Program-made: the position numbers and the translations under genes
Notes under the pieces: model-generated
Told to the model about the DNA's origin: nothing
The model's database searches: none
The model's input: only the letters and a program-made list of their open reading frames with translations
Shown: piece after piece, positions 1-25,704 of the stretch
Numbering within the stretch: position 1 is the first letter of the stretch
Layout: every line of letters begins with the position of its first letter
Virus record (IMG/VR): IMGVR_UViG_2681813320_000003
Coordinates: 1 to 25,704 of that record
Length of the DNA: 25,704 nucleotides
Reading direction: 5' to 3' (one strand)
Origin: a virus
Lineage: Duplodnaviria > Heunggongvirae > Uroviricota > Caudoviricetes

Positions 1-23
1 TGATACATCAAATCCCGTCTGGC

Positions 24-626
24 CTACGCCTCCGGGGGAGCAGGCCAATTGATATCCGGCGCGGTGCTGGTATCAGTTGCCGTCACCGCGTCAATGTAAT
101 CCAGCACAGCGTTAAGTCGGGTGTTTTCTGTCTGCGTCAGCTTCCGCCCGGTCTGCAATTTCAGTTGAATCAGACTAATGGAAGCCATTGCAGTATCAAT
201 CAGTGACTGACGCTGTACTTCTGCCGCGCCTACTGCGGCGCTACGCTGTGCCTCGGTATCCGTCACCCATTTCTCACCATCCCATTTATCGTATGGCGTT
301 AATGGGGCGATAGTGGTTGTATTTTCAGGATAATCACCCAGAGCTGTGATTTCTTTCGATTCTCCTGTTTCGGTGCTATAGACGATTTCACCGCGATGGT
401 CTGGCACATATTCCCATGAGTTAAAATCTGCAGAACGGCAAATTGCATAACCAGCTTTATGTGTAACTGGTGCATCTAAACAAGAACATGCCGGGATACC
501 GACGCCAACCGCAAGATATTCAGTTGATGTGGAAATATATTCCCGCGTTTCACCATCATAATTATAAATGGTAATGACTCCCGCTTTTATGGCAATGAGT
601 TCGTTATTTAATACGACTTTATTCAT
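24..626 (-). CDS. tail fibre assembly chaperone (Tfa family)
   Basis: 200-aa ORF ending ...TSTAPDINWPAPPEA, the conserved Tfa/gpG-type C-terminus. Its ATG overlaps the stop of the upstream tip-domain ORF (TGATG at 624-628), suggesting translational coupling. Confidence 0.8.
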   Translation of the reverse strand: MNKVVLNNELIAIKAGVITIYNYDGETREYISTSTEYLAVGVGIPACSCLDAPVTHKAGYAICRSADFNSWEYVPDHRGEIVYSTETGESKEITALGDYPENTTTIAPLTPYDKWDGEKWVTDTEAQRSAAVGAAEVQRQSLIDTAMASISLIQLKLQTGRKLTQTENTRLNAVLDYIDAVTATDTSTAPDINWPAPPEA

Positions 627-1129
627 CAGGCAGCCCTCACGATATAATTAAAGGCAATGTTACGAGGACGGTTTTCATTAGCAGTTGGAACTACTTTTGA
701 AGCGTCAAATCCAACCGCCTTTGGATATGTTTCGCCACCAGCAGGTGAAACTTGCAACCCTTTTAATTCAAAGAAACTATTATTAGTTGAATGTTCTAAC
801 GGTATCAATGCCCCATAAAAAGAGGCAGTATTTTCCCAAATTGAATAATTTTCTGTATTTACTGTACGCAATCCGCCAGTTATGTTCCTGATGGCATCAC
901 TTTGATTTGAAAGCAACGAACGGGACACATCCACGCCTTTGGCGTCATCCCAGCCGCGAATAAACTCACCACGTAAATCAGGCAATTTATTTGTCGGGTA
1001 AGCCTTTGCCAGTTCCGGGTATTCTTCAGCAGAAAAAGGCGCACCATTGCATTTCAGCCAGCCTGTCGGTGGTGTGACAGAAGGCCAGGGAACAGGGACA
1101 CCAACGGGTAATGCTGAGCCTTCTCCCAA
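626..1129 (-). CDS. orphan tail-fibre tip cassette (phage tail collar-like domain), TTG-initiated, no shaft region
   Basis: Motif PWPSVTPPTGWLKCNGAPFSAEEYPELAKAYPTNKLPDLRGEF matches the tail-collar signature (GWLxCNG...LPDLRG). The frame opens only 15 codons upstream of the TTG, after an in-frame stop at 1175-1177, so there is no N-terminal shaft. Confidence 0.5.
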   Translation of the reverse strand: MGEGSALPVGVPVPWPSVTPPTGWLKCNGAPFSAEEYPELAKAYPTNKLPDLRGEFIRGWDDAKGVDVSRSLLSNQSDAIRNITGGLRTVNTENYSIWENTASFYGALIPLEHSTNNSFFELKGLQVSPAGGETYPKAVGFDASKVVPTANENRPRNIAFNYIVRAA

Positions 1130-1464
1130 ACCAAAGATAACGCGGCGGTTTCTTCTGCCGTCGCGATTTCCGCATCAAAAGCATCCTGTCTCCAGACTAT
1201 TTCCTTATCAGCCATAGAACGCAATACCGTTCTTTTCTGTTCAGCCTGAATAATCTGTTGTTCAGCGGAGAGTGGCGGGATATCAATCCACGCAGGATTA
1301 CCATTTTTATCAGCCCCCAGCGTTTTGCCTTCTGGCGCTACGCCTGTGTAAATTGCCATTGTTTCATCATCAACATCAGCGCCATTTTCAGGCCATGAAC
1401 CGGCGCTGATATATACATCTTTTAATGCTTCCGGATAGAAAGAGCCTTTATAAAATTTATTCAT
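1054..1464 (-). CDS. G: tail fibre assembly chaperone gpG-like, atypical C-terminus
   Basis: ATG at 1462-1464 lies 2 nt after the H stop. The conserved chaperone segment AEIATAEETAALSLVWEKAQHY is present, but the ending ...PLVSLFPGLLSHHRQAG lacks the usual WP motif and overlaps the tip-cassette ORF in another frame. Confidence 0.6.
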   Translation of the reverse strand: MNKFYKGSFYPEALKDVYISAGSWPENGADVDDETMAIYTGVAPEGKTLGADKNGNPAWIDIPPLSAEQQIIQAEQKRTVLRSMADKEIVWRQDAFDAEIATAEETAALSLVWEKAQHYPLVSLFPGLLSHHRQAG

Positions 1465-1466
1465 TC

Positions 1467-2984
1467 TTAATACCCCAGCGCGATAAAACAACAATCTTCG
1501 GTGCCCTCTCCGGATGGCGACCAGTTCTGAATACTGATATGCGTTCTGCTGGCAATACGCACATTCATCGCGGCATTGTAGCCAGATGTTCCACGGTTTC
1601 CGGTCGCAAACAAGCCTGCATAGGGAAAAGCAAATGGTAAGGCATATCCAGCATCAGCTCCCTTTTGTGTTGCCACCGTTCCCCACTGCAACATAAGTTT
1701 CACCGGGTTTCCTGTCGTCGCAATGCATGGAATGTAGATGTAGCCATTACCTGACATCATTGACCTGAAGCTGTCTAAATCCAGTAACTTCGAGGGATTA
1801 TCTGCTCCAACATCTCGTGTTGCAGCGGTCCCTAACTGGAGCGCATGTCGGAAGGCTGATACATCAGAAATATCAGATCCATTAGCCGATTTCTGCATAG
1901 CTCCGGAGGCTTTATTTATCGTTTCTCCCAAACCAAGGTATGTGAGAAGACCAGCTACATCCTTTCCACTCAAATTGGTAAGCATATTGTCCAGCGGTTG
2001 TTTACCTGCCAGCGCATTAAGCATTGTCGTGGCAAAGTTCGGATCATTCCCCAGTGCCGCCGCCAGTTCGTTCAGTGTATCCAGTGCAGCAGGTGCAGAA
2101 CCCACCATTCCTGCAATCGCCGATTTCACAAAAGCCGTAGTGGCAATCTGTGTATTGTTGACCGACTGCGCCGCCGTGGGGGCTGTTGGCGTTCCGGTGA
2201 GTGCCGGACTCGACAACGGTGCTTTTAGTGCCAGCGCATTGTTAATGGTGGTACTGAAATTCGGATCATTGTTAATGGCTGCGGCTATTTCTTTCAGCGT
2301 GTCCAGCGTGGCTGGCGCACCATTAATAAGGGCCGTCAGTGCCGCCTGTACAAACGCAGTGGTCGCAACCTGCGTGGTATTATTCCCCGCCGCTGGCGTT
2401 GGCGCTTTGGGGGTTCCGGTAAATGTCGGGCTGGCTTTTGGCGCGTACTGTGAATGCGGGTCCGGTGCGGCAAGATGTTTTGCCATCTGATCATCCGCGT
2501 ACACCTTCAGCTCCAGTGCCTTGTCATCCACATACTTGCGGGTTGCCAGCACTACAGCAGGGTCGATTTTCAGGGTGATATTGTCCGTGCTGCTGGTAAT
2601 CAGCACCATGCGCACGGTCTGAGTGCGCCCGCTACCTTCAGCCAGTTGCGGCTTATAGCTTTCCGGGCAGTTGCCCACGGCAATCAATGCCCCGGACTCA
2701 TCAAACAAGCCCACTTCACGTATCCACCAACCGCCCTCGTTTTCAGGGATCACCTGTTCGGCAATAATCTGGCTGCTGTTCTGCGGGTCGATATAAAGCA
2801 TATTCAGCGCAGCCCGGCGTTTCTCATTTACCAGTGCCGTCTGCCTTGCGTCCGGCGTTGGCAATACTCCACCGCCATCGCCCACCGCCATATGGGTAAT
2901 TTTTAGCGGCACACCGAGCGCGGCGGCGCTGGCAAGTTTCGCCGCGCCAATATCCGTCAGCAGGGTATAAAATTTTGTGCTCAT
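1467..2984 (-). CDS. H: tail fibre protein H
   Basis: 505-aa ORF with a conserved P2 H-like N-terminus, two tandem ~72-aa fibre repeats (NDPNF..TTAFV motifs) and a distinct C-terminal tip; sits in the P2 gene-order position. Confidence 0.9.
   Translation of the reverse strand: MSTKFYTLLTDIGAAKLASAAALGVPLKITHMAVGDGGGVLPTPDARQTALVNEKRRAALNMLYIDPQNSSQIIAEQVIPENEGGWWIREVGLFDESGALIAVGNCPESYKPQLAEGSGRTQTVRMVLITSSTDNITLKIDPAVVLATRKYVDDKALELKVYADDQMAKHLAAPDPHSQYAPKASPTFTGTPKAPTPAAGNNTTQVATTAFVQAALTALINGAPATLDTLKEIAAAINNDPNFSTTINNALALKAPLSSPALTGTPTAPTAAQSVNNTQIATTAFVKSAIAGMVGSAPAALDTLNELAAALGNDPNFATTMLNALAGKQPLDNMLTNLSGKDVAGLLTYLGLGETINKASGAMQKSANGSDISDVSAFRHALQLGTAATRDVGADNPSKLLDLDSFRSMMSGNGYIYIPCIATTGNPVKLMLQWGTVATQKGADAGYALPFAFPYAGLFATGNRGTSGYNAAMNVRIASRTHISIQNWSPSGEGTEDCCFIALGY
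1995..2432 (-). repeat. tandem in-frame ~216-bp repeat inside H (two copies of the phage tail-fibre repeat unit)
   Basis: Protein segments SPTFTGTPKAPTPAAGNNTTQVATTAFV... and SSPALTGTPTAPTAAQSVNNTQIATTAFV... are clearly homologous and adjacent; the DNA shows the corresponding duplication. Confidence 0.6.
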
Positions 2985-14274: not shown

Positions 14275-15684
14275 TTACTCATCTACTCTGATTTTTTGTT
14301 TTTTATTATTTTGAGTTAAGACATTTATGGTAATAGATGTATACGGATGAAAGTCAGGCACTATACTTTTAACCTCTCCATTTTCAAGAAAATGATGTGC
14401 TATTGAAGGAAATAAATCAGGATCTACAGGATATTTAGCATTAGGATTATGATACATATTTAAACCTTCTGCCCATGTTTCTGTAATATCGCCTTCTTTC
14501 ACTTCAAAACTAAATGCTGCTGGATATAATGCCTCTGGGTCATGATCATGGCAGTAACCACTCCTAAATAATCTAAGGTCACTTCTTCCAAAACCAGCCA
14601 ATTTTCCCATCCGATTAAACTTCGATATAGTACCACTATTAGAACTAAGGACGGCCGAAATATTTTCAGACTCATCCAAGAAGAAAAAGCCTGAAGGAAT
14701 TTCCTTTTTCTCAAATTGATGCGATATAATTTTCTTAGTTGCTAAACTGTAACATCCATCTTCAGATTTAACATGCTCATAGCGAATACCATAAAGATAC
14801 TGCCAAAGTGCACTATGGGACCAAATCATAGAGTTTGGTTCATGAAAATCAGCAATTGCGAAAATTAAAGGATTCCCCTTAACATGTTCTAGATCCCAGT
14901 ATCGAGTTTTCTTTTTCAGTTTAGAATAGAGAGAACTTCCAAATTTAATCGGCATATAATTCTCTATTTTCTCTAGCAATTCTTCCTTACTTTTAGGTTC
15001 AGATAGCATTTCAGATGATTGATTAATATCATTCCCTGTTGGATTAACCGTTACAGCTTCAATGCAAATAGTATTACCATACTTACGTGCCACATAATCA
15101 GGAGCATTAAACTGCCTATCTAGCCAAAAGTGTTCCTCTCGTAAATATGCGAAAAGATATAACTCCCATAGCCGGGCATCAAAACCTGTTGTCTGAAACT
15201 GCTCTATAAAATTCCCGTCGACATCCTCAAAATGATTCATCATTTCCTTGATTATCCCTGTTGCAGGCGACCAGTTCGCGTATTTACCAAATAATGAAAA
15301 ATGATGATGAAGTTTATCTGGTGTAACTATAGGTGTGAATAAATCCATTGCTTTATAAGTTTCATCACCTTGTGGAAATACTTTTACGTTTAATTTAGTA
15401 TGCTTCCGCATTAATTTCTTTAGTTTTGCTCGTGCAGAATTCATTTCTGAAACACTAGTAAATAGGTCAATACATCTATATCTCCCACTTAAGTCTCTTG
15501 CTAAAACAATACCGCTATAATCTTCATCGATTTGATCCAATAATAGCGCCCCTAGCAGGAACTCTCTCGGACTACAGTACCACTCAAACTCATAGCCTAA
15601 AAGTTCAGTATTTGGCATTCTGGTCCAATCAACAAAAGCATTAAACCTCTCTTTACTCATTTTTTTTATATCAAGAAAAGACAT
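14275..15684 (-). CDS. hypothetical protein, AT-rich cargo (moron) gene; function unknown
   Basis: 469-aa uninterrupted ORF in markedly AT-rich DNA, with a GAGGT Shine-Dalgarno 8 nt upstream of the ATG. No Walker A or other motif recognisable by eye. Confidence 0.75.
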   Translation of the reverse strand: MSFLDIKKMSKERFNAFVDWTRMPNTELLGYEFEWYCSPREFLLGALLLDQIDEDYSGIVLARDLSGRYRCIDLFTSVSEMNSARAKLKKLMRKHTKLNVKVFPQGDETYKAMDLFTPIVTPDKLHHHFSLFGKYANWSPATGIIKEMMNHFEDVDGNFIEQFQTTGFDARLWELYLFAYLREEHFWLDRQFNAPDYVARKYGNTICIEAVTVNPTGNDINQSSEMLSEPKSKEELLEKIENYMPIKFGSSLYSKLKKKTRYWDLEHVKGNPLIFAIADFHEPNSMIWSHSALWQYLYGIRYEHVKSEDGCYSLATKKIISHQFEKKEIPSGFFFLDESENISAVLSSNSGTISKFNRMGKLAGFGRSDLRLFRSGYCHDHDPEALYPAAFSFEVKEGDITETWAEGLNMYHNPNAKYPVDPDLFPSIAHHFLENGEVKSIVPDFHPYTSITINVLTQNNKKQKIRVDE

Positions 15685-16005: not shown

Positions 16006-16239
16006 TTAATGCAGCCAGCTGTCGTCTTCCCACACCTTCTGCATAATTTTCATCACTTGTTTTCTTTCTTCGTCCAGTTGCAGTCCGGTTAGTTCCACAC
16101 CGTTAGAGCTACCTTTGCGAATGCGAATTACCGTTTTGGGATACAGGGGGCGCAGATTGCGGTAAAGCTCGGATTCAAGGGCGTCCAGGGTAGACTGGCT
16201 AATCTTCTGCTCTTTATCGATCATTATTTCAATGCGCAT
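16006..16239 (-). CDS. dinI: DinI-family protein (Tum C-terminal-like)
   Basis: From the internal ATG 16237-16239 the product MRIEIMIDK...LDALESEL...KIMQKVWEDDSWLH aligns by eye along its length with E. coli DinI (MRIEVTIAK...IDALAGEL...ILQETWESADDW). GAGGTG Shine-Dalgarno upstream. Confidence 0.75.
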   Translation of the reverse strand: MRIEIMIDKEQKISQSTLDALESELYRNLRPLYPKTVIRIRKGSSNGVELTGLQLDEERKQVMKIMQKVWEDDSWLH

Positions 16240-16249
16240 AAAAGTCACC

Positions 16250-16438
16250 TCAGCTGATGACATCCATTGAGCGGTTGTATTCGTGGGTTCTGATTTTTGC
16301 CATGAGTTCATCAGTCAATTCAGAAACCCACTGCAGAGCCAGCCCCTTCTCTTCATCACTACACTCACTAGCCGCTACAAGCTTAAGAAAAAAATCAATG
16401 CGCTGGAGCTTCAAAGACTCCAAAAAATAGTCCTGCAT
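16250..16438 (-). CDS. small protein, possible Tum N-terminal-like antirepressor moiety
   Basis: 62-aa ORF from ATG 16436-16438 with a strong AGGAGG Shine-Dalgarno, immediately upstream of the dinI-like gene and downstream of a LexA box. The longer track ORF (to 16540) would overlap the LexA box. Confidence 0.5.
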   Translation of the reverse strand: MQDYFLESLKLQRIDFFLKLVAASECSDEEKGLALQWVSELTDELMAKIRTHEYNRSMDVIS

Positions 16439-16591: not shown

Positions 16592-19006
16592 TTAATACAG
16601 GTTCCGCCACTGATCATCTTCCTGCAAACGCTGGTTCCGATAGAAGATACGCAGGCCTGCTCCTGACGGAATACTGCCTCCGCGAAGGAGTAAATCGACC
16701 TCTTTCTCGCTGCCATCAAATCCTCTGGACTTCAGCTCATACACGAGCTGCAGTCGCTGATGGTCTGTAATTCGCTGTTTGTAGTCTTTACGCCGTTTCG
16801 GTTTCACCAGGCGTAACCTTGCTGCCAGTTCCCTGCGCTCTTTTTTGCTCATACTGTGCAGGTAATCGTGCAACTCCTTGTCATCCATGCTGGTAATGTC
16901 CGTTCTGGGGTCCCCATCAGCTGATTTATCTTTCTCCTGTTGGTTCAAATTTTCAGCAAGGGGACAGTTATTGCCACGAGTCCAAGGGGCGCAAGCGCCC
17001 TGGTCGGCTGCCGCCTCCTGAACGTCAACGGCCTTACGAACCATTTTCCACTTCACTGCATGAGTGCAGATTTTGCCCTCTGCAATGGGTGACCAGATGC
17101 CATAAATACGAATGCCGTGATCGCCATAGGCGGTCGGCTCTTCGTTGATTTCATAAGCGGTTCTGATGAGGTGATATTTACGGGGAACCAGTACGCCGCC
17201 CTGCTTCATGATGTAGGTGGCAAAACAACCAGCATCAGCTGCAGCCAGAATGGCATCAAGGCGCGGGTTATCCAGTACCGGCGCACCTGCTTTTTTGTCA
17301 CCCTGTTGCCTTGCCACCTGACCAGCCAGCAATCGCAGTTCACGGTAAGCCTGACGCCCCGGAATGCCAAAGAAGCGGAATTGCTGAACACGATGCAGAG
17401 ACGCCCAGGCATTAACGTATTCAGCGTTATCACGCAGAGATTTACCCGTTTCCTTGCTGATCTCGCCAGCCAGACCACGCCCGTCAATGTTCTTACTGAT
17501 GTATTTCGCGATGTAGCTAGTCGGCGTTCCTTTGCGCGGGTTAATCAACTCAGACTTAAAGCGCGGCCCCGTGTTATTGCCCAGCTCCTCGCGGTCTTCA
17601 CGGATGGCAAACTTACGCAGTAATGCAGTGATGGCGCGGCGGTCTTTTTTGCGCATAAAACACAACAGGTGCCAGTGAACTGTGCCGTCATGATGCGGCT
17701 CAGCAACCCGCACGCCATACCAGCGCAACCCGGCTTTGTGCATAGCCTTACGAAATGCAGCAAACATGCCGACCAGATAATCACTGCTTTGTCTTACCGT
17801 CGCATTTGTCCAGTTCGGGTTGGGTCTGCCGTTATTTAGCGTGGAATGGAAACGTGACGGACAGGTGATGGTGTAGAAAACGGCGCAGTCACCGCGCATT
17901 TCCGCGATAAGTTCCAGACCTTTAACACAGGCCATCATCTCATTGCGGCGATGCGCAGGGTTGCTGCTGCTGGCGTTTACCACATCCTCCATGTCCAGCG
18001 TGTCGCCGTCTTCGTTCACCAGTTCATGAGAACGGAAAAACTCCAGCGACTTACGGCGCTGCTCACGTTTATGCATCACGGCTTCATAGCTGACATAAGG
18101 AGATGCTTTTTTGCTGACCAGGCAGACAGCGCGCAACTGCTCTTCCCGCCATTCGCAACGCATCTTCCATAATTTCCGGTACCACCAGTCAGCGCACAAC
18201 ATACGCGCCAGCGAACCCGGAATGAGTTCATAGGGCACGGGTTTACGGCGGTTTCTTTTCCGACGGAGTTGCTCAAACGCAGGCGGGATAACATCCAGAC
18301 GCAGGGTTTCCGCTACCACCTTTTCCCATGTCTTGCGGATTTCTTCTGGCTTAACGTCATCGGTGGCATACAAATCACCACAAGCTGCATCAAGGCACAT
18401 GCTCATATGCGCAGCGACAAGGGTAGACAGGCGCTTCACCTGATCCTGACTCATTTCAGGCAGGATAAGCAGGCCATCCAGCCCTTCATGGCTTGCCATA
18501 AAGCGAAAAGAAGCGGATAGCTGACTGTCGCGTACATGCTCCAGTCGTTCCAGACATGGCTTAATCGTCTCACGCAAATAGCGGGAATAAGCCTTTGGCC
18601 TGCCCAGGCTGCTGAAGTATTCAATACGTTGCATCAGCGGCTTGCTGATATGGGAAGGCTGGGCATTGACGTCCGCCAGAATGACCATATCTGGATTAAA
18701 ACGCTGCTGCTCATGCGCCAGCTTTGCCCGACTAATGAGCTTATCCTGCTCCATTTCGCGCTGGACAGGATCACGGGATTCATTAAAGAAATAACGCTCC
18801 CAGACCTGATCACTCAGTGCCTCGCGGCGCAGCTGTTCCTGCTCGTTATCGGCAGCGTACAGAGTGATCAGGTTTGAAAGCGCAGAAACCGGCGCAACTT
18901 CCGCCGGGTCCAGATAAGGGTTAATGGCCTTTTTCGGGCTGTTCCATGAGAACGATGCGGCAGCCTCGTTAAAGCCGCAGCAGTTGTTCATATCGGCATG
19001 GCTCAT
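16592..19006 (-). CDS. A: replication initiation protein A (rolling-circle endonuclease, P2 gpA family)
   Basis: 804-aa ORF with an HUH-type metal-binding motif ([13 protein letters not shown]) and a paired-tyrosine motif (YIAKYISKN); P2 gpA size class. Confidence 0.85.
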
Positions 19007-19860
19007 GCACGTACTCCGTACACGGCAGAACTATCCACGCCACGCGAATAATCAAATCCCACCCAGCAGCGCGGCCCGGAAACAGCAATGATTTCTGTTG
19101 CTGATTTACCCTCGCCAGCTGCCACACCGATGCTGCGTTTTGCCTTGATGTAGTGGTGAGTAAAATTGCGATACAGCGAACGGATCAGGGATGTGTCACT
19201 GTTAGAAACAATGACCGGATGTCCTTCTGATGACCGATGTTCAAGAACAGATGCCAGGTGATACTGGTCATCTTCAGTGAAACCATCAGTGTGATAGCCG
19301 GAAAACGTACCGTCATACGGCGGATCGCAATACACCACATCCCCCGCCTTCAACATCGCCAGCGTTTCATCAAAGCTGGCGCAGATAAACGTTGCTCGCT
19401 GGGCCTTTTCTGCAAATGCGCGAATTTCTTTTTCAGGGAAATACGGATTTTTATAATTACCGTAGGGAATGTTGAAATGCCCGCTCTTGTTATAGCGACA
19501 TAAACCACGGTAACCGTGACGATTGAGATACAGGAAATATACCGCTTTCATGAAATCAGTAATTTCAGTGGAGTAATTAAACTCCTGCCTTATGTTGTAA
19601 TAAGCCACCTCCCTGTTTGCGATCTCAAATAAAACTCTGGCGCGAGATATAAACGATTCACAATCAGCAGCAACCTTTTTATAGAGGTTGATTAAATCAG
19701 GATTAATATCCGCAACAAGATAGCTGGGGTACTCCGTCTCCATCATCACTGCACAGGAACCCGCGAAAGGTTCAACCAGTCGCGGGCCAGCAGGAAGATG
19801 CTTTTTCAGTTCGGACATAATGGCGGTTTTATTTCCCGCCCATTTCAGGATGGTGCTCAT
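19003..19860 (-). CDS. dam: DNA adenine methyltransferase (Dam-like N6-MTase)
   Basis: From ATG 19858-19860: [11 protein letters not shown] (AdoMet-binding region) and the catalytic DPPY motif ([10 protein letters not shown]). Confidence 0.85.
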
Positions 19861-20084
19861 ACAGCACCTCCGTTGTAATGTTTGCCTTTCAGCTCTGCGA
19901 TTTCCTGACAGGTAATGCAAAGCTGCACACCCGGAATGGCACGGCGGCGTGCTGGCGGAATTGGCGCTTCACACTCAATGCAAAGCACGCGGGACACGCC
20001 CGGCGTTTTGGCACGGGCAGCACGGATATGACGCTGGCGTTCTTCTTCAACGCGCTGCTGTACGAGATCCATTGCATCAGCCAT
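19857..20084 (-). CDS. TraR/DksA-family C4 zinc-finger protein
   Basis: 75 aa with CIEC-x17-CITC spacing typical of the DksA/TraR zinc finger; stop overlaps the dam start (ATGA). Confidence 0.7.
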   Translation of the reverse strand: MADAMDLVQQRVEEERQRHIRAARAKTPGVSRVLCIECEAPIPPARRRAIPGVQLCITCQEIAELKGKHYNGGAV

Positions 20085-23465: not shown

Positions 23466-24671
23466 ATGCATATTCAACAAGAACTCGATGAAGAACTTAA
23501 TAATCTTTTTGACACTATTAGAAAAAAATCAAGTATTCGACCACCAATTGAGATTGAAAAAAACCTTACTTTGATAGATGACTTCGCTCTAAAATGCAGT
23601 AAATTCCGGGGTTGTTTAGTAGATTACATCCAGGAAAATGATAACAGGTTAAGTTTACGCTTGCGCAATAGACTTAGAGCTGTAGATATCATGCAGAAAG
23701 AAATCGTCTCGTGTTTAGAGTGTTTTTTATCAGGGGATATTAAGTCGGCATATGACTCATTTGAAAGTATGCTAGAGCCACGAACTATATCTCGTCATAT
23801 TGAAAATATATGCATACCTCTTTCTGACTTATGTAATGAAGATAAACCATTATTCCGCGTTAGAAAATCTGATACGCCACTTACATCAAGAAGAGATATG
23901 TTTCATATTCCGTTCAGTCAGCGTCACTTTGTTAGAGCACAGAGATTTTCAGTTGCTGGTCTACCCTGTTTATATTTAGGAACATCTCTTTATATATGCT
24001 GGAGAGAAATGGATAAGCCAGATTTTGATAAGCTATATATATCTGCCTACAAGATCGATAAAAATAATGACTCAAAGGTACTAAATATAGGACCTGATTT
24101 TTTATATAAACAGAGATCTATATTAGAGTCAAAAAGAAAGAACAAATATGATTTCAATACCAAACTCTCATATTTAGCACTTTGGCCTTTGATAATTGCA
24201 TGCAATTATTTAAAAAAATATGACAATGCTTCCTTTGTACAAGAATATATTATCCCCAATCTTTTGATGCAATGGATCAGTCGGAACAGCAATGAGAATG
24301 TTGTTGGTATAGCCTACCGCTCAACAAAATTACCTGCTAATGCCTTAGGTAGCAGAGGAATAAATGTGGTACTTCCTCCAAAAGTGCGTTACGAGGAGAT
24401 GGCCAATAATGAATTTTGTCCAAATCTAGCGAAAATTTTCAAATTCACATTGCCTGTATCTTGGCAGGTCCTAAAAACAGTTGAGTACGTGCCTGAATCA
24501 GTTGCACAATCCGATCGAGAGAATCTCAGCAGAAGGCTACGAAGAAGAAAAAATCGTGAGCTAACAGGAAGCATAGATGATGAAATTTTGAACATCTATA
24601 ATTTAACTGACTTTTATAAACTCGAAACTTGTATGGATGAAATTCAAGTATATGCCCATATTAAACCATGA
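23466..24671 (+). CDS. AT-rich cargo protein with RES-domain-like motifs (putative NAD+-targeting toxin or effector)
   Basis: 401-aa ORF starting 9 nt after the int stop. Motifs RFSVAGLPCLYLGTSLYICWRE and GIAYRST...GINVVLPP fit the RES-domain pattern. Marked drop in G+C relative to flanking phage genes. Confidence 0.55.
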   Translation: MHIQQELDEELNNLFDTIRKKSSIRPPIEIEKNLTLIDDFALKCSKFRGCLVDYIQENDNRLSLRLRNRLRAVDIMQKEIVSCLECFLSGDIKSAYDSFESMLEPRTISRHIENICIPLSDLCNEDKPLFRVRKSDTPLTSRRDMFHIPFSQRHFVRAQRFSVAGLPCLYLGTSLYICWREMDKPDFDKLYISAYKIDKNNDSKVLNIGPDFLYKQRSILESKRKNKYDFNTKLSYLALWPLIIACNYLKKYDNASFVQEYIIPNLLMQWISRNSNENVVGIAYRSTKLPANALGSRGINVVLPPKVRYEEMANNEFCPNLAKIFKFTLPVSWQVLKTVEYVPESVAQSDRENLSRRLRRRKNRELTGSIDDEILNIYNLTDFYKLETCMDEIQVYAHIKP

Positions 24672-25019: not shown

Positions 25020-25619
25020 TTGGCAAGAACGACACGCCCCCTGACCAACACAGAAGTACTGCGCGCTAAAGCGTTAGAAAAGGATCTAACGTTGCATGAT
25101 GGCGATGGTCTTTTTCTACTCGTTAAAACGAACGGTAAGAAGTTATGGCGTTTCCGTTATCAACGTCCGGCAACAAAGCAACGGACAATGATGGGGCTAG
25201 GAGCCTTCCCAGCCCTTTCACTTGCTGACGCCCGACGCTTAAGAGCGGATTACCTTTCCTTGTTAGCCAACGGAATTGACCCGCAAATTCAAGCTGAAAT
25301 TGCAGAGGAACAGCAGCAAATCGCACAGGACAGTATTTTCTCGACGGTCGCCGCTAATTGGTTTCAGCTCAAAAGCAAAAGTGTTACCCCTGATTATGCA
25401 AAAGATATTTGGCGCTCATTGGAAAAAGATGTATTCCCCGCCGTTGGTGAGATGCCCGTTCAGCAGATCAAAGCTAGAACATTGGTCGAAGCACTTGAGC
25501 CAGTCAAAGCTCGTGGGGCATTAGAGACTGTACGTCGTCTGGTGCAACGCATTAACGAAATAATGATTTATGCGGTTAACACTGGCTTGATTGATGCAAA
25601 CCCAGCATCAGGTGGGTAA
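25020..25619 (+). pseudogene. P4-family (CP4-57 IntA-like) integrase, truncated by an IS1 insertion
   Basis: TTG start with a GGAG Shine-Dalgarno. The 199-aa N-terminal half (MARTTRPLTNTE...DGDGLFLLVKTNGKKLWRFRYQRP...) is typical of P4-type integrases, which are about 400 aa; the frame ends at a stop created inside the IS1 terminal repeat. Confidence 0.75.
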
Positions 25620-25704
25620 TGACTCCAACTTATTGATAGTGTTTTATGTTCAGATAATGCCCGATGACTTTGTCATGCAGCTCCACCGATTTTGAGAACG
25701 ACAG
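25615..25704 (-). mobile_element. IS1: IS1 end (terminal inverted repeat plus adjacent sequence), element continues beyond the window
   Basis: ggtaatgactccaacttattgatagtgttttatgttcagataatgcccgatgactttgtcatgcagctccaccgattttgagaacgacag is the reverse complement of the IS1 right end as I recall it. Confidence 0.85.

What the first reader, a model, noticed from the sequence alone, without database searches (positions are those of the whole stretch)
1..1494. Mosaic tail-fibre region: orphan receptor-binding tip cassette coupled to a second chaperone, downstream of H-G
Seen in sequence: after H and a gpG-like chaperone with an atypical C-terminus (no WP ending), a 167-aa tail-collar domain ORF starts with TTG only 15 codons after an in-frame stop and overlaps the chaperone end in another frame. 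It is translationally coupled (TGATG) to an intact second Tfa chaperone. Inference: a spare or remnant tip-plus-chaperone cassette at the variable tail-fibre locus, possibly a substrate for host-range switching by recombination, or the product of a deletion fusing two fibre modules. The window starts inside this region, so any invertase or further cassettes upstream are not visible.
Basis: partly seen in the sequence, partly recalled or inferred. Interest (0 to 1): 0.5.

Follow-up and report, generated by a model that had tools for sequence, protein, structure and literature searches.

The report
Mis-assembled invertible phage tail-fibre switch
The 'orphan' tail-fibre tip and its chaperone are the silent alternative cassette of a well-known invertase-driven host-range switch in a P2-like E. 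coli prophage, and its odd same-direction placement next to a truncated chaperone is almost certainly an assembly error in this draft contig.

Summary
The ORFs exist as described, all on the minus strand: H (505 aa), a Tfa chaperone with an aberrant C-terminus, a 167-aa tail-collar ORF, and a second Tfa (tfaE).

The window is a whole draft contig, E. coli GCA_001283565.1 CYDS01000062.1. It carries a P2-like prophage with the classical Cin/Gin/Pin-type invertible tail-fibre segment. That segment is: H constant part | 26-bp crossover site | tip A + chaperone A, convergent with chaperone B + tip B | site | invertase.

The same prophage, 100% identical, has the canonical arrangement in other assemblies. 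Here, window 1-1134 is flipped and butt-joined at 1134/1135, at the exact centre of a crossover site, to the interior of the first chaperone gene. 36 nt are missing.

A sibling contig of the same assembly (CYDS01000060.1) overlaps window 1061-1120. It runs through 15 corrupted bases (A11TCAG) lying over the crossover site, then into the invertase and tail sheath genes. So the collar cassette sits in its normal silent position.

The breakpoints match predicted de Bruijn node ends (k=75). The junction occurs in no other genome searched.

Verdict: known biology. The direct orientation, the truncated chaperone and the 'TTG ORF' are assembly artefacts (about 0.85). Low interest.

The parts
1949..2984 (-). 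Constant 5' part of tail-fibre gene H (about 345 codons, ending ...GLLTYLGLGE)
   Evidence: PF12571 at E=5e-65. Only 2 substitutions relative to the constant part of the 518-aa H of E. coli CE0011b. 99.7% DNA identity.
1923..1948 (.). Complete 26-bp invertase crossover site, TTCTCCCAAACC AA GGTATGTGAGAA, at the constant/variable boundary of H
   Evidence: These 26 bp match both ends of the invertible segment in L001. The format is the same as the published 26-bp crossover sites of EC958 prophages (PMC4134206).
1467..1922 (-). Currently expressed variable 3' part of H (gp53-like C-terminal tip)
   Evidence: PF21882. 100% identical to the gp53-like cassette of L015 and L022.
1136..1464 (-). First 110 codons of chaperone tfa' (the cognate Tfa of the gp53-like tip). 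The deposited ORF 1054-1494 continues out of frame into the collar cassette.
   Evidence: Caudo_TAP profile positions 5-105 of 131 only. Identical to the intact 138-aa Tfa WP_001032314.1 up to ...EETAALS, then junk. The exact hybrid protein exists on this one contig only.
1134..1135 (.). Artefactual butt-join. The half-site plus central AA (1121-1134) abuts base 1135, which carries the E2348/69- and P1-type allele, followed by the interior of tfa'.
   Evidence: Window 1-1134 matches L015 at 1134/1134 in reverse orientation. Window 1136-1936 matches at 801/801 in forward orientation. 36 nt (S[1135-1170], where S is the 1971-nt invertible segment as read in Logan contig L022) are absent. The junction is absent from every collection searched.
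626..1134 (-). Silent alternative 3' exon of H (tail-collar tip) beginning at its half crossover site. It is deposited in the wrong orientation.
   Evidence: Collar domain at E=7e-15. Equals the C-terminal 167 aa of the 518-aa H of CE0011b. In the sibling contig its 5' end abuts the invertase.
24..626 (-). tfaE, the cognate chaperone of the collar tip, translationally coupled to it (TGATG)
   Evidence: Caudo_TAP at E=1e-32, full-length profile. Annotated tfaE in RefSeq relatives.
1..52 (+). 3' end of tfa' (last 17 codons ...[16 protein letters not shown]), converging on and overlapping tfaE
   Evidence: Matches L001 6001-6052 and the C-terminus of the intact Tfa. It shows that the missing tfa' C-terminus lies at the other end of the flipped block, as the canonical layout predicts.

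Best explanation
The region is the Cin/Gin/Pin-type invertible tail-fibre segment of a P2-like prophage of E. coli. H has a constant 5' part that ends at a 26-bp crossover site. A serine invertase, encoded just beyond the contig end, flips a 1971-bp segment. That segment carries two convergent cassettes: a gp53-like tip with its chaperone tfa', and a collar tip with its chaperone tfaE. Either tip can therefore be fused in frame to H and co-expressed with its own chaperone, which switches receptor specificity.

In this isolate the gp53-like tip is the expressed one (state B, in which H is fused to the gp53-like tip; state A is the opposite orientation, with H fused to the collar tip). The collar cassette is the silent copy, inverted and lying next to the invertase. 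The deposited contig shows it in direct orientation only because the assembler appended one graph node (window 1-1134) the wrong way round. That butt-joined the node's crossover-site end to the end of the preceding node inside tfa' and dropped 36 nt.

The true layout is rc(CYDS01000060.1) - rc(window 1-1134) - 36 nt - window 1136 onward. In that layout tfa' is an intact 138-aa gene and the '167-aa TTG ORF' is simply the unexpressed 3' exon of H.

Shown: the identity of all parts, the crossover site, the canonical arrangement in identical prophages, and the sibling-contig adjacency. Inferred: the exact assembler mechanism (k=75 and a second tfa' allele in the same genome).
For: 1. The canonical architecture with an invertase is present in CE0011b at 99.4% identity.
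2. The same prophage at 100.000% identity has the normal state-B layout in GCA_000703585.1 and GCA_026218615.1. Logan contigs consist of exactly the 1971-nt segment, bounded by the central dinucleotides of the two sites.
3. The window is that segment cut into S[1171-1971] and S[1-1134], with the second piece flipped, one odd base between them and 36 nt lost.
4. The sibling contig CYDS01000060.1 of the same assembly begins with window 1061-1120. It then has 15 corrupted bases (AAAAAAAAAAATCAG) in place of TTCTCCCAAACCAAC, and continues with the invertase-proximal half-site, invertase, sheath, tube and tape-measure genes. So the collar cassette abuts the invertase, and the assembler demonstrably garbled this site.
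5. That contig overhangs the site centre by 74 nt, which gives k=75. The last allele-specific SNP against the common E2348/69- and P1-type tfa'/tfaE allele is S[1060], and 1060+74 = 1134 is the contig end. The next SNP, S[1170], is the odd base 1135. Both sides of the join are therefore predicted node ends.
6. The tfa' sequence at the join matches a real crossover site at only 5 of 26 positions and has a different central dinucleotide. A genuine invertase event there is therefore implausible.
7. The junction, the hybrid 146-aa protein and the 167-aa ORF are unique to this contig. The collections searched were 5,426 complete E. coli genomes, GTDB representatives, IMG/VR, JGI metagenomes and a 15-billion-protein collection.
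8. Forde et al. 2014 document such switching in P2-like prophages and warn of assembly artefacts at these loci (PMC4134206).
Against: - No reads were available, so the absence of reads spanning 1134/1135 is inferred, not shown.
- A de Bruijn assembler should not create a junction without supporting k-mers. A scaffolding or merging step that butt-joins contigs without Ns has to be assumed, and the pipeline is unknown.
- The presence of a second tfa' allele in the same genome was not verified.
- The other contig end carries 90 nt of IS1 rather than the 74 nt expected for k=75.
- Three other rearrangement junctions in unrelated assemblies fall within 3 nt of the same point in tfa'. This could point to a real fragile site.
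- A minority subpopulation carrying a real junction cannot be excluded, because the sibling contig only proves that the canonical junction also exists.
Confidence: 0.85

Rival explanations
1. The junction is real. From state B, the prophage invertase (or an abortive cleavage at its site followed by illegitimate rejoining) inverted the block between the invertase-proximal site and a secondary site inside tfa'. This put the collar cassette in direct orientation, truncated tfa' and probably crippled assembly of the expressed fibre.
For: - The break on the cassette side lies exactly after the central AA of the crossover site, where serine invertases cut.
- With the E2348/69-type allele (TCT) the join is a perfect 12+2+12 hybrid.
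- Cin is known to use quasi sites (Iida & Hiestand-Nauer 1986 and 1987, cited in PMC4134206).
- Three other natural junctions cluster within 3 nt in tfa'.
Against: - The tfa' 'site' matches at 5 of 26 positions and has central TC rather than AA.
- The nearest relatives, 100% identical elsewhere, have T and not A at base 1135.
- The sibling contig shows the collar cassette still joined to the invertase side.
- The crossover centre is also exactly where contigs end in mixed-orientation assemblies.
- Both join ends coincide with predicted k=75 node ends.
- No other genome has this junction.
Confidence: 0.08
2. It is a natural multi-cassette array (like the Min region of p15B) in which cassettes occur in direct as well as inverted orientation and are shuffled through more than two crossover sites.
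For: Each cassette starts with a half crossover site and carries its own chaperone. The deposited order (H constant part, then site-tip-chaperone, then half-site-tip-chaperone) looks superficially like such an array.
Against: - The second 'site' has only one genuine half.
- The first chaperone is truncated out of frame.
- Identical prophages have exactly two sites and two convergent cassettes.
- None of 2,919 E. coli genomes with matches has all pieces on one strand.
Confidence: 0.02
3. It is a decayed remnant. A deletion fused two fibre modules, leaving an orphan tip and chaperone that are no longer switchable.
For: A truncated chaperone and a short ORF with a weak TTG start are typical of decay. 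Real decayed loci with tfa' truncated at nearly the same point do exist (L007, L017, L018).
Against: - Apart from 36 nt, nothing is deleted. Both pieces together equal the intact 1971-nt segment at 100% identity.
- The rest of the prophage is complete.
- The invertase and site are intact in the sibling contig.
Confidence: 0.02

Closest known systems
Invertible tail-fibre segments of E. coli prophages, e.g. EC958 Phi2 (P2-like), described by Forde et al. 2014 (PMC4134206)
   Same: A P2-like prophage whose H constant part is fused at a 26-bp crossover site to one of two mirror-image 3' cassettes. One cassette has a Phage Tail Collar domain and each has its own downstream assembly gene. A serine DNA invertase lies alongside, the segment is about 2 kb, and both orientations co-exist in cultures and upset assemblies.
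   Different: Nothing essential differs. The site sequence (TTCTCCCAAACC AA GGTATGTGAGAA) and the cassette alleles differ. The deposited orientation here is an artefact.
Phage Mu G segment / Gin (S-U versus S'-U') and phage P1 C segment / Cin
   Same: The logic is the same: a constant 5' part of the fibre gene, alternative 3' parts plus cognate Tfa-family chaperones in convergent orientation, crossover sites with a 2-bp core, and an adjacent serine invertase. The very same tfa'/gp53-like cassette (100% identical over 166 nt) occurs in P1-like plasmids such as pSJ_98.
   Different: The host phage is P2-like (Peduoviridae) rather than Mu or P1, the fibre constant part is unrelated, and the central dinucleotide is AA (Mu uses GA/TC).
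e14 P segment / Pin of E. coli K-12
   Same: RefSeq names the second chaperone tfaE after the e14 gene. The invertase belongs to the Pin-like cluster ('DNA invertase Pin-like').
   Different: e14 is a defective lambdoid element, whereas this is an apparently complete P2-like prophage.
Min multiple-inversion region of plasmid p15B
   Same: Cassettes of fibre 3' ends are bounded by crossover sites, some in direct orientation.
   Different: Min has six genuine sites. Here there are only two genuine sites, and the apparent third is half a site created by a mis-join.

Membership tests
Gin/Cin/Pin/Hin-type DNA-invertase tail-fibre switching system | Serine (resolvase-family) invertase gene adjacent to the invertible segment | tested here: met
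   The invertase is not in the window. It is present in the sibling contig of the same assembly (L037 142-708; PF00239 + PF02796) and in relatives (L001 4530-5096; L015 9407-9973).
Gin/Cin/Pin/Hin-type DNA-invertase tail-fibre switching system | Two 26-bp crossover sites (12+2+12) in inverted orientation flanking the segment | tested here: met
   One complete site lies at window 1923-1948. The variable-side half of the second site is at 1121-1134, and its invertase-side half is in the sibling contig (L037 76-87) after 15 corrupted bases. Both complete sites are present in L001, L015 and L020.
Gin/Cin/Pin/Hin-type DNA-invertase tail-fibre switching system | Constant 5' gene part fused in frame to alternative 3' parts at the site | tested here: met
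   The 505-aa H (gp53-like end) and the 518-aa H (collar end) have near-identical constant parts (2 substitutions) that end at the shared ...YLGLGE and diverge from there. The 167-aa ORF equals the collar end.
Gin/Cin/Pin/Hin-type DNA-invertase tail-fibre switching system | Each alternative 3' part followed by its own Tfa-family chaperone, with the two cassettes convergent | tested here: met
   This holds in L001, L015, L020 and L022. In the deposited window the cassettes are in direct orientation, which I attribute to a mis-join.
Gin/Cin/Pin/Hin-type DNA-invertase tail-fibre switching system | Both orientations occur in nature or in populations | tested here: met
   State A (H fused to the collar tip) occurs in CE0011b and L033. 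State B (H fused to the gp53-like tip) occurs in L015, L020, L030 and L032. Draft contigs and Logan unitigs break exactly at the central dinucleotide, as expected for mixed orientation.
Gin/Cin/Pin/Hin-type DNA-invertase tail-fibre switching system | Fis-dependent recombinational enhancer within the 5' part of the invertase gene | not tested
   The invertase gene is outside the window and no enhancer scan was made.
P2-like (Peduoviridae) prophage | P2 gene order: Q P O N M L X Y K lysis R S V W J I H G, with FI FII E T U D ogr beyond | tested here: met
   Pfam families along the contig, in this order, are Phage_GPO, cap_P2, term_smal, GPL, tail_X, holin, lysozyme, LysA/B/C, GpR, tail_S, base_V, GPW, Baseplate_J, Tail_P2_I and H. 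The sibling contig and L015 carry sheath, tube, TAC, GpE, TMP, GpU, GPD and Ogr next to smpB. The best phage match is Escherichia phage 500465-1.
Tfa (Caudo_TAP, PF02413) tail-fibre assembly protein: the 146-aa ORF | Variable N-terminal fibre-binding domain plus conserved C-terminal helical domain | tested here: not met
   Only profile positions 5-105 of 131 match. The last 28 residues of the intact protein ([28 protein letters not shown]) are replaced by 26 out-of-frame residues. The C-terminal domain is the conserved assembly/trimerisation part (PMC9608196). As deposited, the ORF is not an intact Tfa. The intact gene is recovered in the corrected layout.

The most novel reading that the evidence does not exclude
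The 1134/1135 junction is real in at least part of the population. In that case it would be an aberrant inversion between a genuine crossover site and a non-cognate point inside the chaperone gene, a point where three other natural rearrangements also break. It would convert a two-state switch into a locked, tandem, chaperone-defective array, and would be a snapshot of how invertase misfiring remodels or decays tail-fibre loci.
Probability: 0.08. Interest if true: 0.35.

Novelty: already known. Interest (0 to 1): 0.06.

Why it matters
Biologically this is textbook phage host-range switching, so nothing new is learned about mechanism.

The practical value is cautionary. Invertible segments that exist in both orientations in a culture break short-read assemblies exactly at the crossover centre, and they can be re-joined wrongly. 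Here that produced two fictitious proteins now present in public databases:
- CTW97397.1, a 146-aa 'tail fiber assembly protein'.
- WP_032253590.1, a 167-aa 'phage tail protein'.

It also produced a locus that looks like a novel mosaic. Such loci should be judged only after checking sibling contigs or reads.

Tried and rejected
**1. Quasi-site hypothesis.** I aligned the tfa' breakpoint in several registers to the real half-sites and to published gix/hix/cix-type sites. The best register gives 5 of 26 matches and a mismatched core. Rejected as a credible invertase site.

**2. Independent occurrences of the junction or its reciprocal.** I searched exact patterns in GTDB-representative genomes, IMG/VR and JGI metagenomes, and ran megablast against 5,426 complete E. 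coli genomes and against phages. I also made exact-protein look-ups. Nothing was found beyond this contig.

**3. Breakpoint 'hot spot' in tfa'.**
- Three other hybrid Tfa proteins break within 3 nt of the same point.
- Their partners are a Mu-like DNA circularization gene, lambda-type gpJ and nohD/Nu1.
- The junctions have 4-, 2- and 1-nt microhomologies. They are therefore illegitimate deletions in decayed prophages, not invertase products.
- None occurs in complete genomes.
- The clustering stays unexplained but is not needed for the verdict.

**4. The isolate's own Logan assembly.** I tried to find it through rare exact proteins. It could not be identified.

**5. Deriving k from the IS1 end.** The overhang of 90 nt disagrees with the 74 nt obtained from the two tail-fibre ends. 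I keep k=75 as an inference only.

**6. Blocked invertase look-up.** I worked around it through the exact sheath protein.
Full report
**What is in the sequence**

All four genes of the finding lie on the minus strand.
- H is at 1467-2984 (505 aa).
- A Tfa-like ORF is at 1054-1494 (146 aa from TTG, 136 aa from the ATG at 1464).
- A 167-aa ORF is at 626-1129.
- A 200-aa Tfa is at 24-626.

Pfam confirms their identities:
- H has the P2-type N-terminal fibre domain (PF12571, E=5e-65) and a gp53-like C-terminal domain.
- The 146-aa ORF matches only positions 5-105 of the 131-position Caudo_TAP profile.
- The 167-aa ORF has a Tail Collar domain (E=7e-15).
- The last ORF is a full-length Caudo_TAP protein (E=1e-32).

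The TTG lies 15 codons after an in-frame stop, and the collar ORF and the last Tfa share base 626 (TGATG).

**Where the window comes from**

Exact-protein look-ups show that the window is the entire contig CYDS01000062.1 (25,704 nt) of the draft E. coli assembly GCA_001283565.1. Position 1 is therefore a contig end. The rest of the contig is a P2-like prophage in the usual gene order.

**Comparison with relatives**

In E. coli CE0011b (99.4% identity) the locus has the classical invertible architecture. It consists of:
- the H constant part;
- a 26-bp crossover site;
- the collar tip, giving a 518-aa H;
- tfaE;
- converging on these, tfa' (138 aa) and a gp53-like tip;
- a second site;
- a serine recombinase gene, followed by the tail sheath gene.

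Against that locus, window 1-1134 matches the collar tip plus tfaE in one orientation. Window 1136-1948 matches tfa' plus the gp53-like tip in the other orientation. Window 1923-3200 matches the H constant part. The 26 bp at 1923-1948 (TTCTCCCAAACC AA GGTATGTGAGAA) match both ends of the segment.

A protein alignment shows that the two H versions share the constant part (2 substitutions), which ends at ...YLGLGE, and diverge from there. The 167-aa ORF is the C-terminal 167 residues of the collar-type H. So the 'orphan' ORF is the alternative 3' exon of H, and the second Tfa is its cognate chaperone.

This system is described for E. coli prophages, including a P2-like one, by Forde et al. 2014. 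They also list the 26-bp sites and warn about assembly problems (PMC4134206).

**The anomaly**

From here on, S denotes the 1971-nt invertible segment as read in Logan contig L022, numbered from the collar-cassette end. State A is the orientation in which H is fused to the collar tip. State B is the orientation in which H is fused to the gp53-like tip.

In a canonical state B, the collar cassette would be inverted relative to H and would lie next to the invertase. In the deposited contig it is in the same orientation as H. Its half-site plus the central AA (1121-1134) is joined to the interior of tfa': TTCTCCCAAACC AA | A GATAACGCGGC. This truncates tfa' after ...EETAALS.

I first treated this as a possible invertase-mediated inversion at a secondary site. 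Two observations weakened that idea.
- The tfa' sequence resembles a crossover site at only 5 of 26 positions and has a different core dinucleotide.
- The nearest relatives carry T where the window has A at 1135.

**The same prophage elsewhere is normal**

Contig JNQA01000056.1 of E. coli 2-210-07_S3_C3 is 100.000% identical to window 1-1134 (reverse orientation) and to window 1136-1936 (forward orientation). It shows the canonical order smpB-ogr-D-U-T-E-FII-FI-invertase | collar tip-tfaE, convergent with tfa'-gp53-like tip. It ends exactly at ...TTCTCCCAAACCAA, the centre of the crossover site.

GCA_026218615.1 has the same prophage in normal state B, with an intact tfa'. Logan contigs from other samples consist of exactly the segment S, bounded by TTGGTTTGGGAGAA ... 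TTCTCCCAAACCAA. Unitigs therefore end naturally at the crossover centre when both orientations are present.

In the coordinates of S, the window reads, in the H direction: H constant part, rc(S[1171-1971]), one base, then S[1-1134]. S[1135-1170] (36 nt) is missing and the contig ends at S[1134].

**The decisive result**

The tail sheath protein of the identical prophage carries an accession from the same submission (CTW96355.1). Looking it up returned contig CYDS01000060.1 of the same assembly.
- Its first 60 nt are window 1061-1120, the 5' end of the collar cassette.
- Nt 61-75 read AAAAAAAAAAATCAG where relatives have TTCTCCCAAACCAAC.
- From nt 76 it is identical to the invertase-proximal half-site, followed by the invertase (142-708), sheath, tube, assembly chaperone and tape-measure genes.

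So, in this very isolate, the collar cassette abuts the invertase, which is the canonical silent position. The assembler also demonstrably corrupted the crossover site.

**Consistency with a graph-node mis-join (inference)**

- The sibling contig overhangs the end of the central dinucleotide by 74 nt, which implies k=75.
- The common E2348/69- and P1-type allele of this region differs from S at S[1060] and S[1170] and then not until S[1460].
- 1060+74 = 1134, exactly the contig end.
- S[1170] is exactly the odd base 1135, which carries that other allele's nucleotide.

Window 1-1134 therefore behaves as one de Bruijn node that was appended in the wrong orientation to the end of the preceding node.

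I could not verify that a second allele is present in the genome. The IS1 end of the contig (90 nt of IS1) does not fit k-1 = 74. This paragraph is therefore inference, not demonstration.

**Uniqueness**

Several searches support the view that the arrangement is unique to this contig.
- No complete E. coli genome (5,426 searched, 2,919 with matches) has all pieces on one strand, and none has the junction.
- The junction and its predicted reciprocal are absent from GTDB representatives, IMG/VR and JGI metagenomes.
- The hybrid 146-aa and the 167-aa proteins occur on this contig only.
- Among 15 contigs carrying the identical baseplate J protein, only this one has the hybrid neighbourhood.

**Mechanism of the real system**

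The Fis/enhancer step and the cut position below come from established knowledge of Gin, Hin and Cin; the anatomy is shown here. The invertase binds the two 26-bp sites. With the Fis-bound enhancer it forms an invertasome, cuts at the central AA with a 2-nt stagger, rotates and religates. This inverts the 1971-bp segment. Either the gp53-like tip with tfa' or the collar tip with tfaE then becomes the 3' end of H and its downstream co-translated chaperone.

Tfa proteins bind the fibre tip through their variable N-terminal domain. They promote trimer assembly through the conserved C-terminal helical domain (PMC9608196). If the deposited truncation were real, it would therefore probably disable the expressed fibre.

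**Verdict**

The spare cassette and the predicted invertase are real and already well known. The features that made the locus look unusual are best explained as an assembly artefact (about 0.85). Those features are the direct orientation, the chaperone with an atypical C-terminus, the out-of-frame overlap and the short TTG ORF.

A real aberrant rearrangement retains about 0.08, mainly for two reasons: reads were not available, and three unrelated natural deletions break within 3 nt of the same point in tfa'.

Noticed in passing
L037 (GCA_001283565.1 contig CYDS01000060.1) nt 61-75: Fifteen corrupted bases (AAAAAAAAAAATCAG) replace TTCTCCCAAACCAAC exactly over the crossover site at the start of the sibling contig. 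This looks like padding from the assembler where a 60-k-mer junction node was too short to supply the k-1 prefix.
   Followed up: partly
L007 2520-2545; L017 4005-4020; L018 3675-3690 (tfa' codons ...EETAAL): Three independent deletion junctions in decayed prophage remnants next to invertase remnants break within 3 nt of the same point in tfa' (GCGTTA|TC|). The partners are a Mu-like DNA circularization gene, nohD/Nu1 and gpJ, with microhomologies of 4, 1 and 2 nt respectively. L007-type contigs occur in several samples including Logan, but the L007- and L018-type junctions are in none of the 5,426 complete genomes (the L017 junction was not searched as a whole). The reason for the clustering is unknown.
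   Followed up: partly
window 14275-15684 (-): A 469-aa ORF between the portal gene and the replication genes matches the anti-phage defence protein PD-T7-1 (PADLOC, E=1e-196) and has no Pfam domain. It is a defence cargo gene at a P2 variable locus.
   Followed up: partly
window 25615-25704 (with 25020-25619 +): The contig ends 90 nt into an IS1 copy (GGTAATGACTCC...). The IS1 interrupts an integrase-family gene (Arm-DNA-bind_3 plus Phage_int_M domains only) that is intact in, for example, ATCC 8739.
   Followed up: partly
window 19003-19920 (-) and 16006-16311 (-): The prophage carries a Dam-like D12-class N6-adenine methyltransferase (E=1e-76) and a DinI-like protein (E=1e-22).
   Followed up: no
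window 23466-24671 (+): A 401-aa ORF next to the prophage integrase is very widespread (more than 1000 contigs) and is named 'RES domain-containing protein' in UniRef. It has no Pfam or PADLOC hit here.
   Followed up: no
L031 (GCA_014616475.1 AAWEGT010000024.1) 1-2860: Another draft contig shows a collar cassette, tfaE and a 146-aa Tfa flanked by two recombinase genes, with a 430-nt stretch without a called gene where the gp53-like tip should be. This may be another mis-assembly or a rearrangement at the same kind of locus.
   Followed up: no
L020/L025 (GCA_026218615.1) about 1480-2995 of L020: No H gene is on record in the collection's gene calls for this contig, although the DNA reads through an apparently intact gp53-type H. 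This is probably an indexing gap rather than biology.
   Followed up: no
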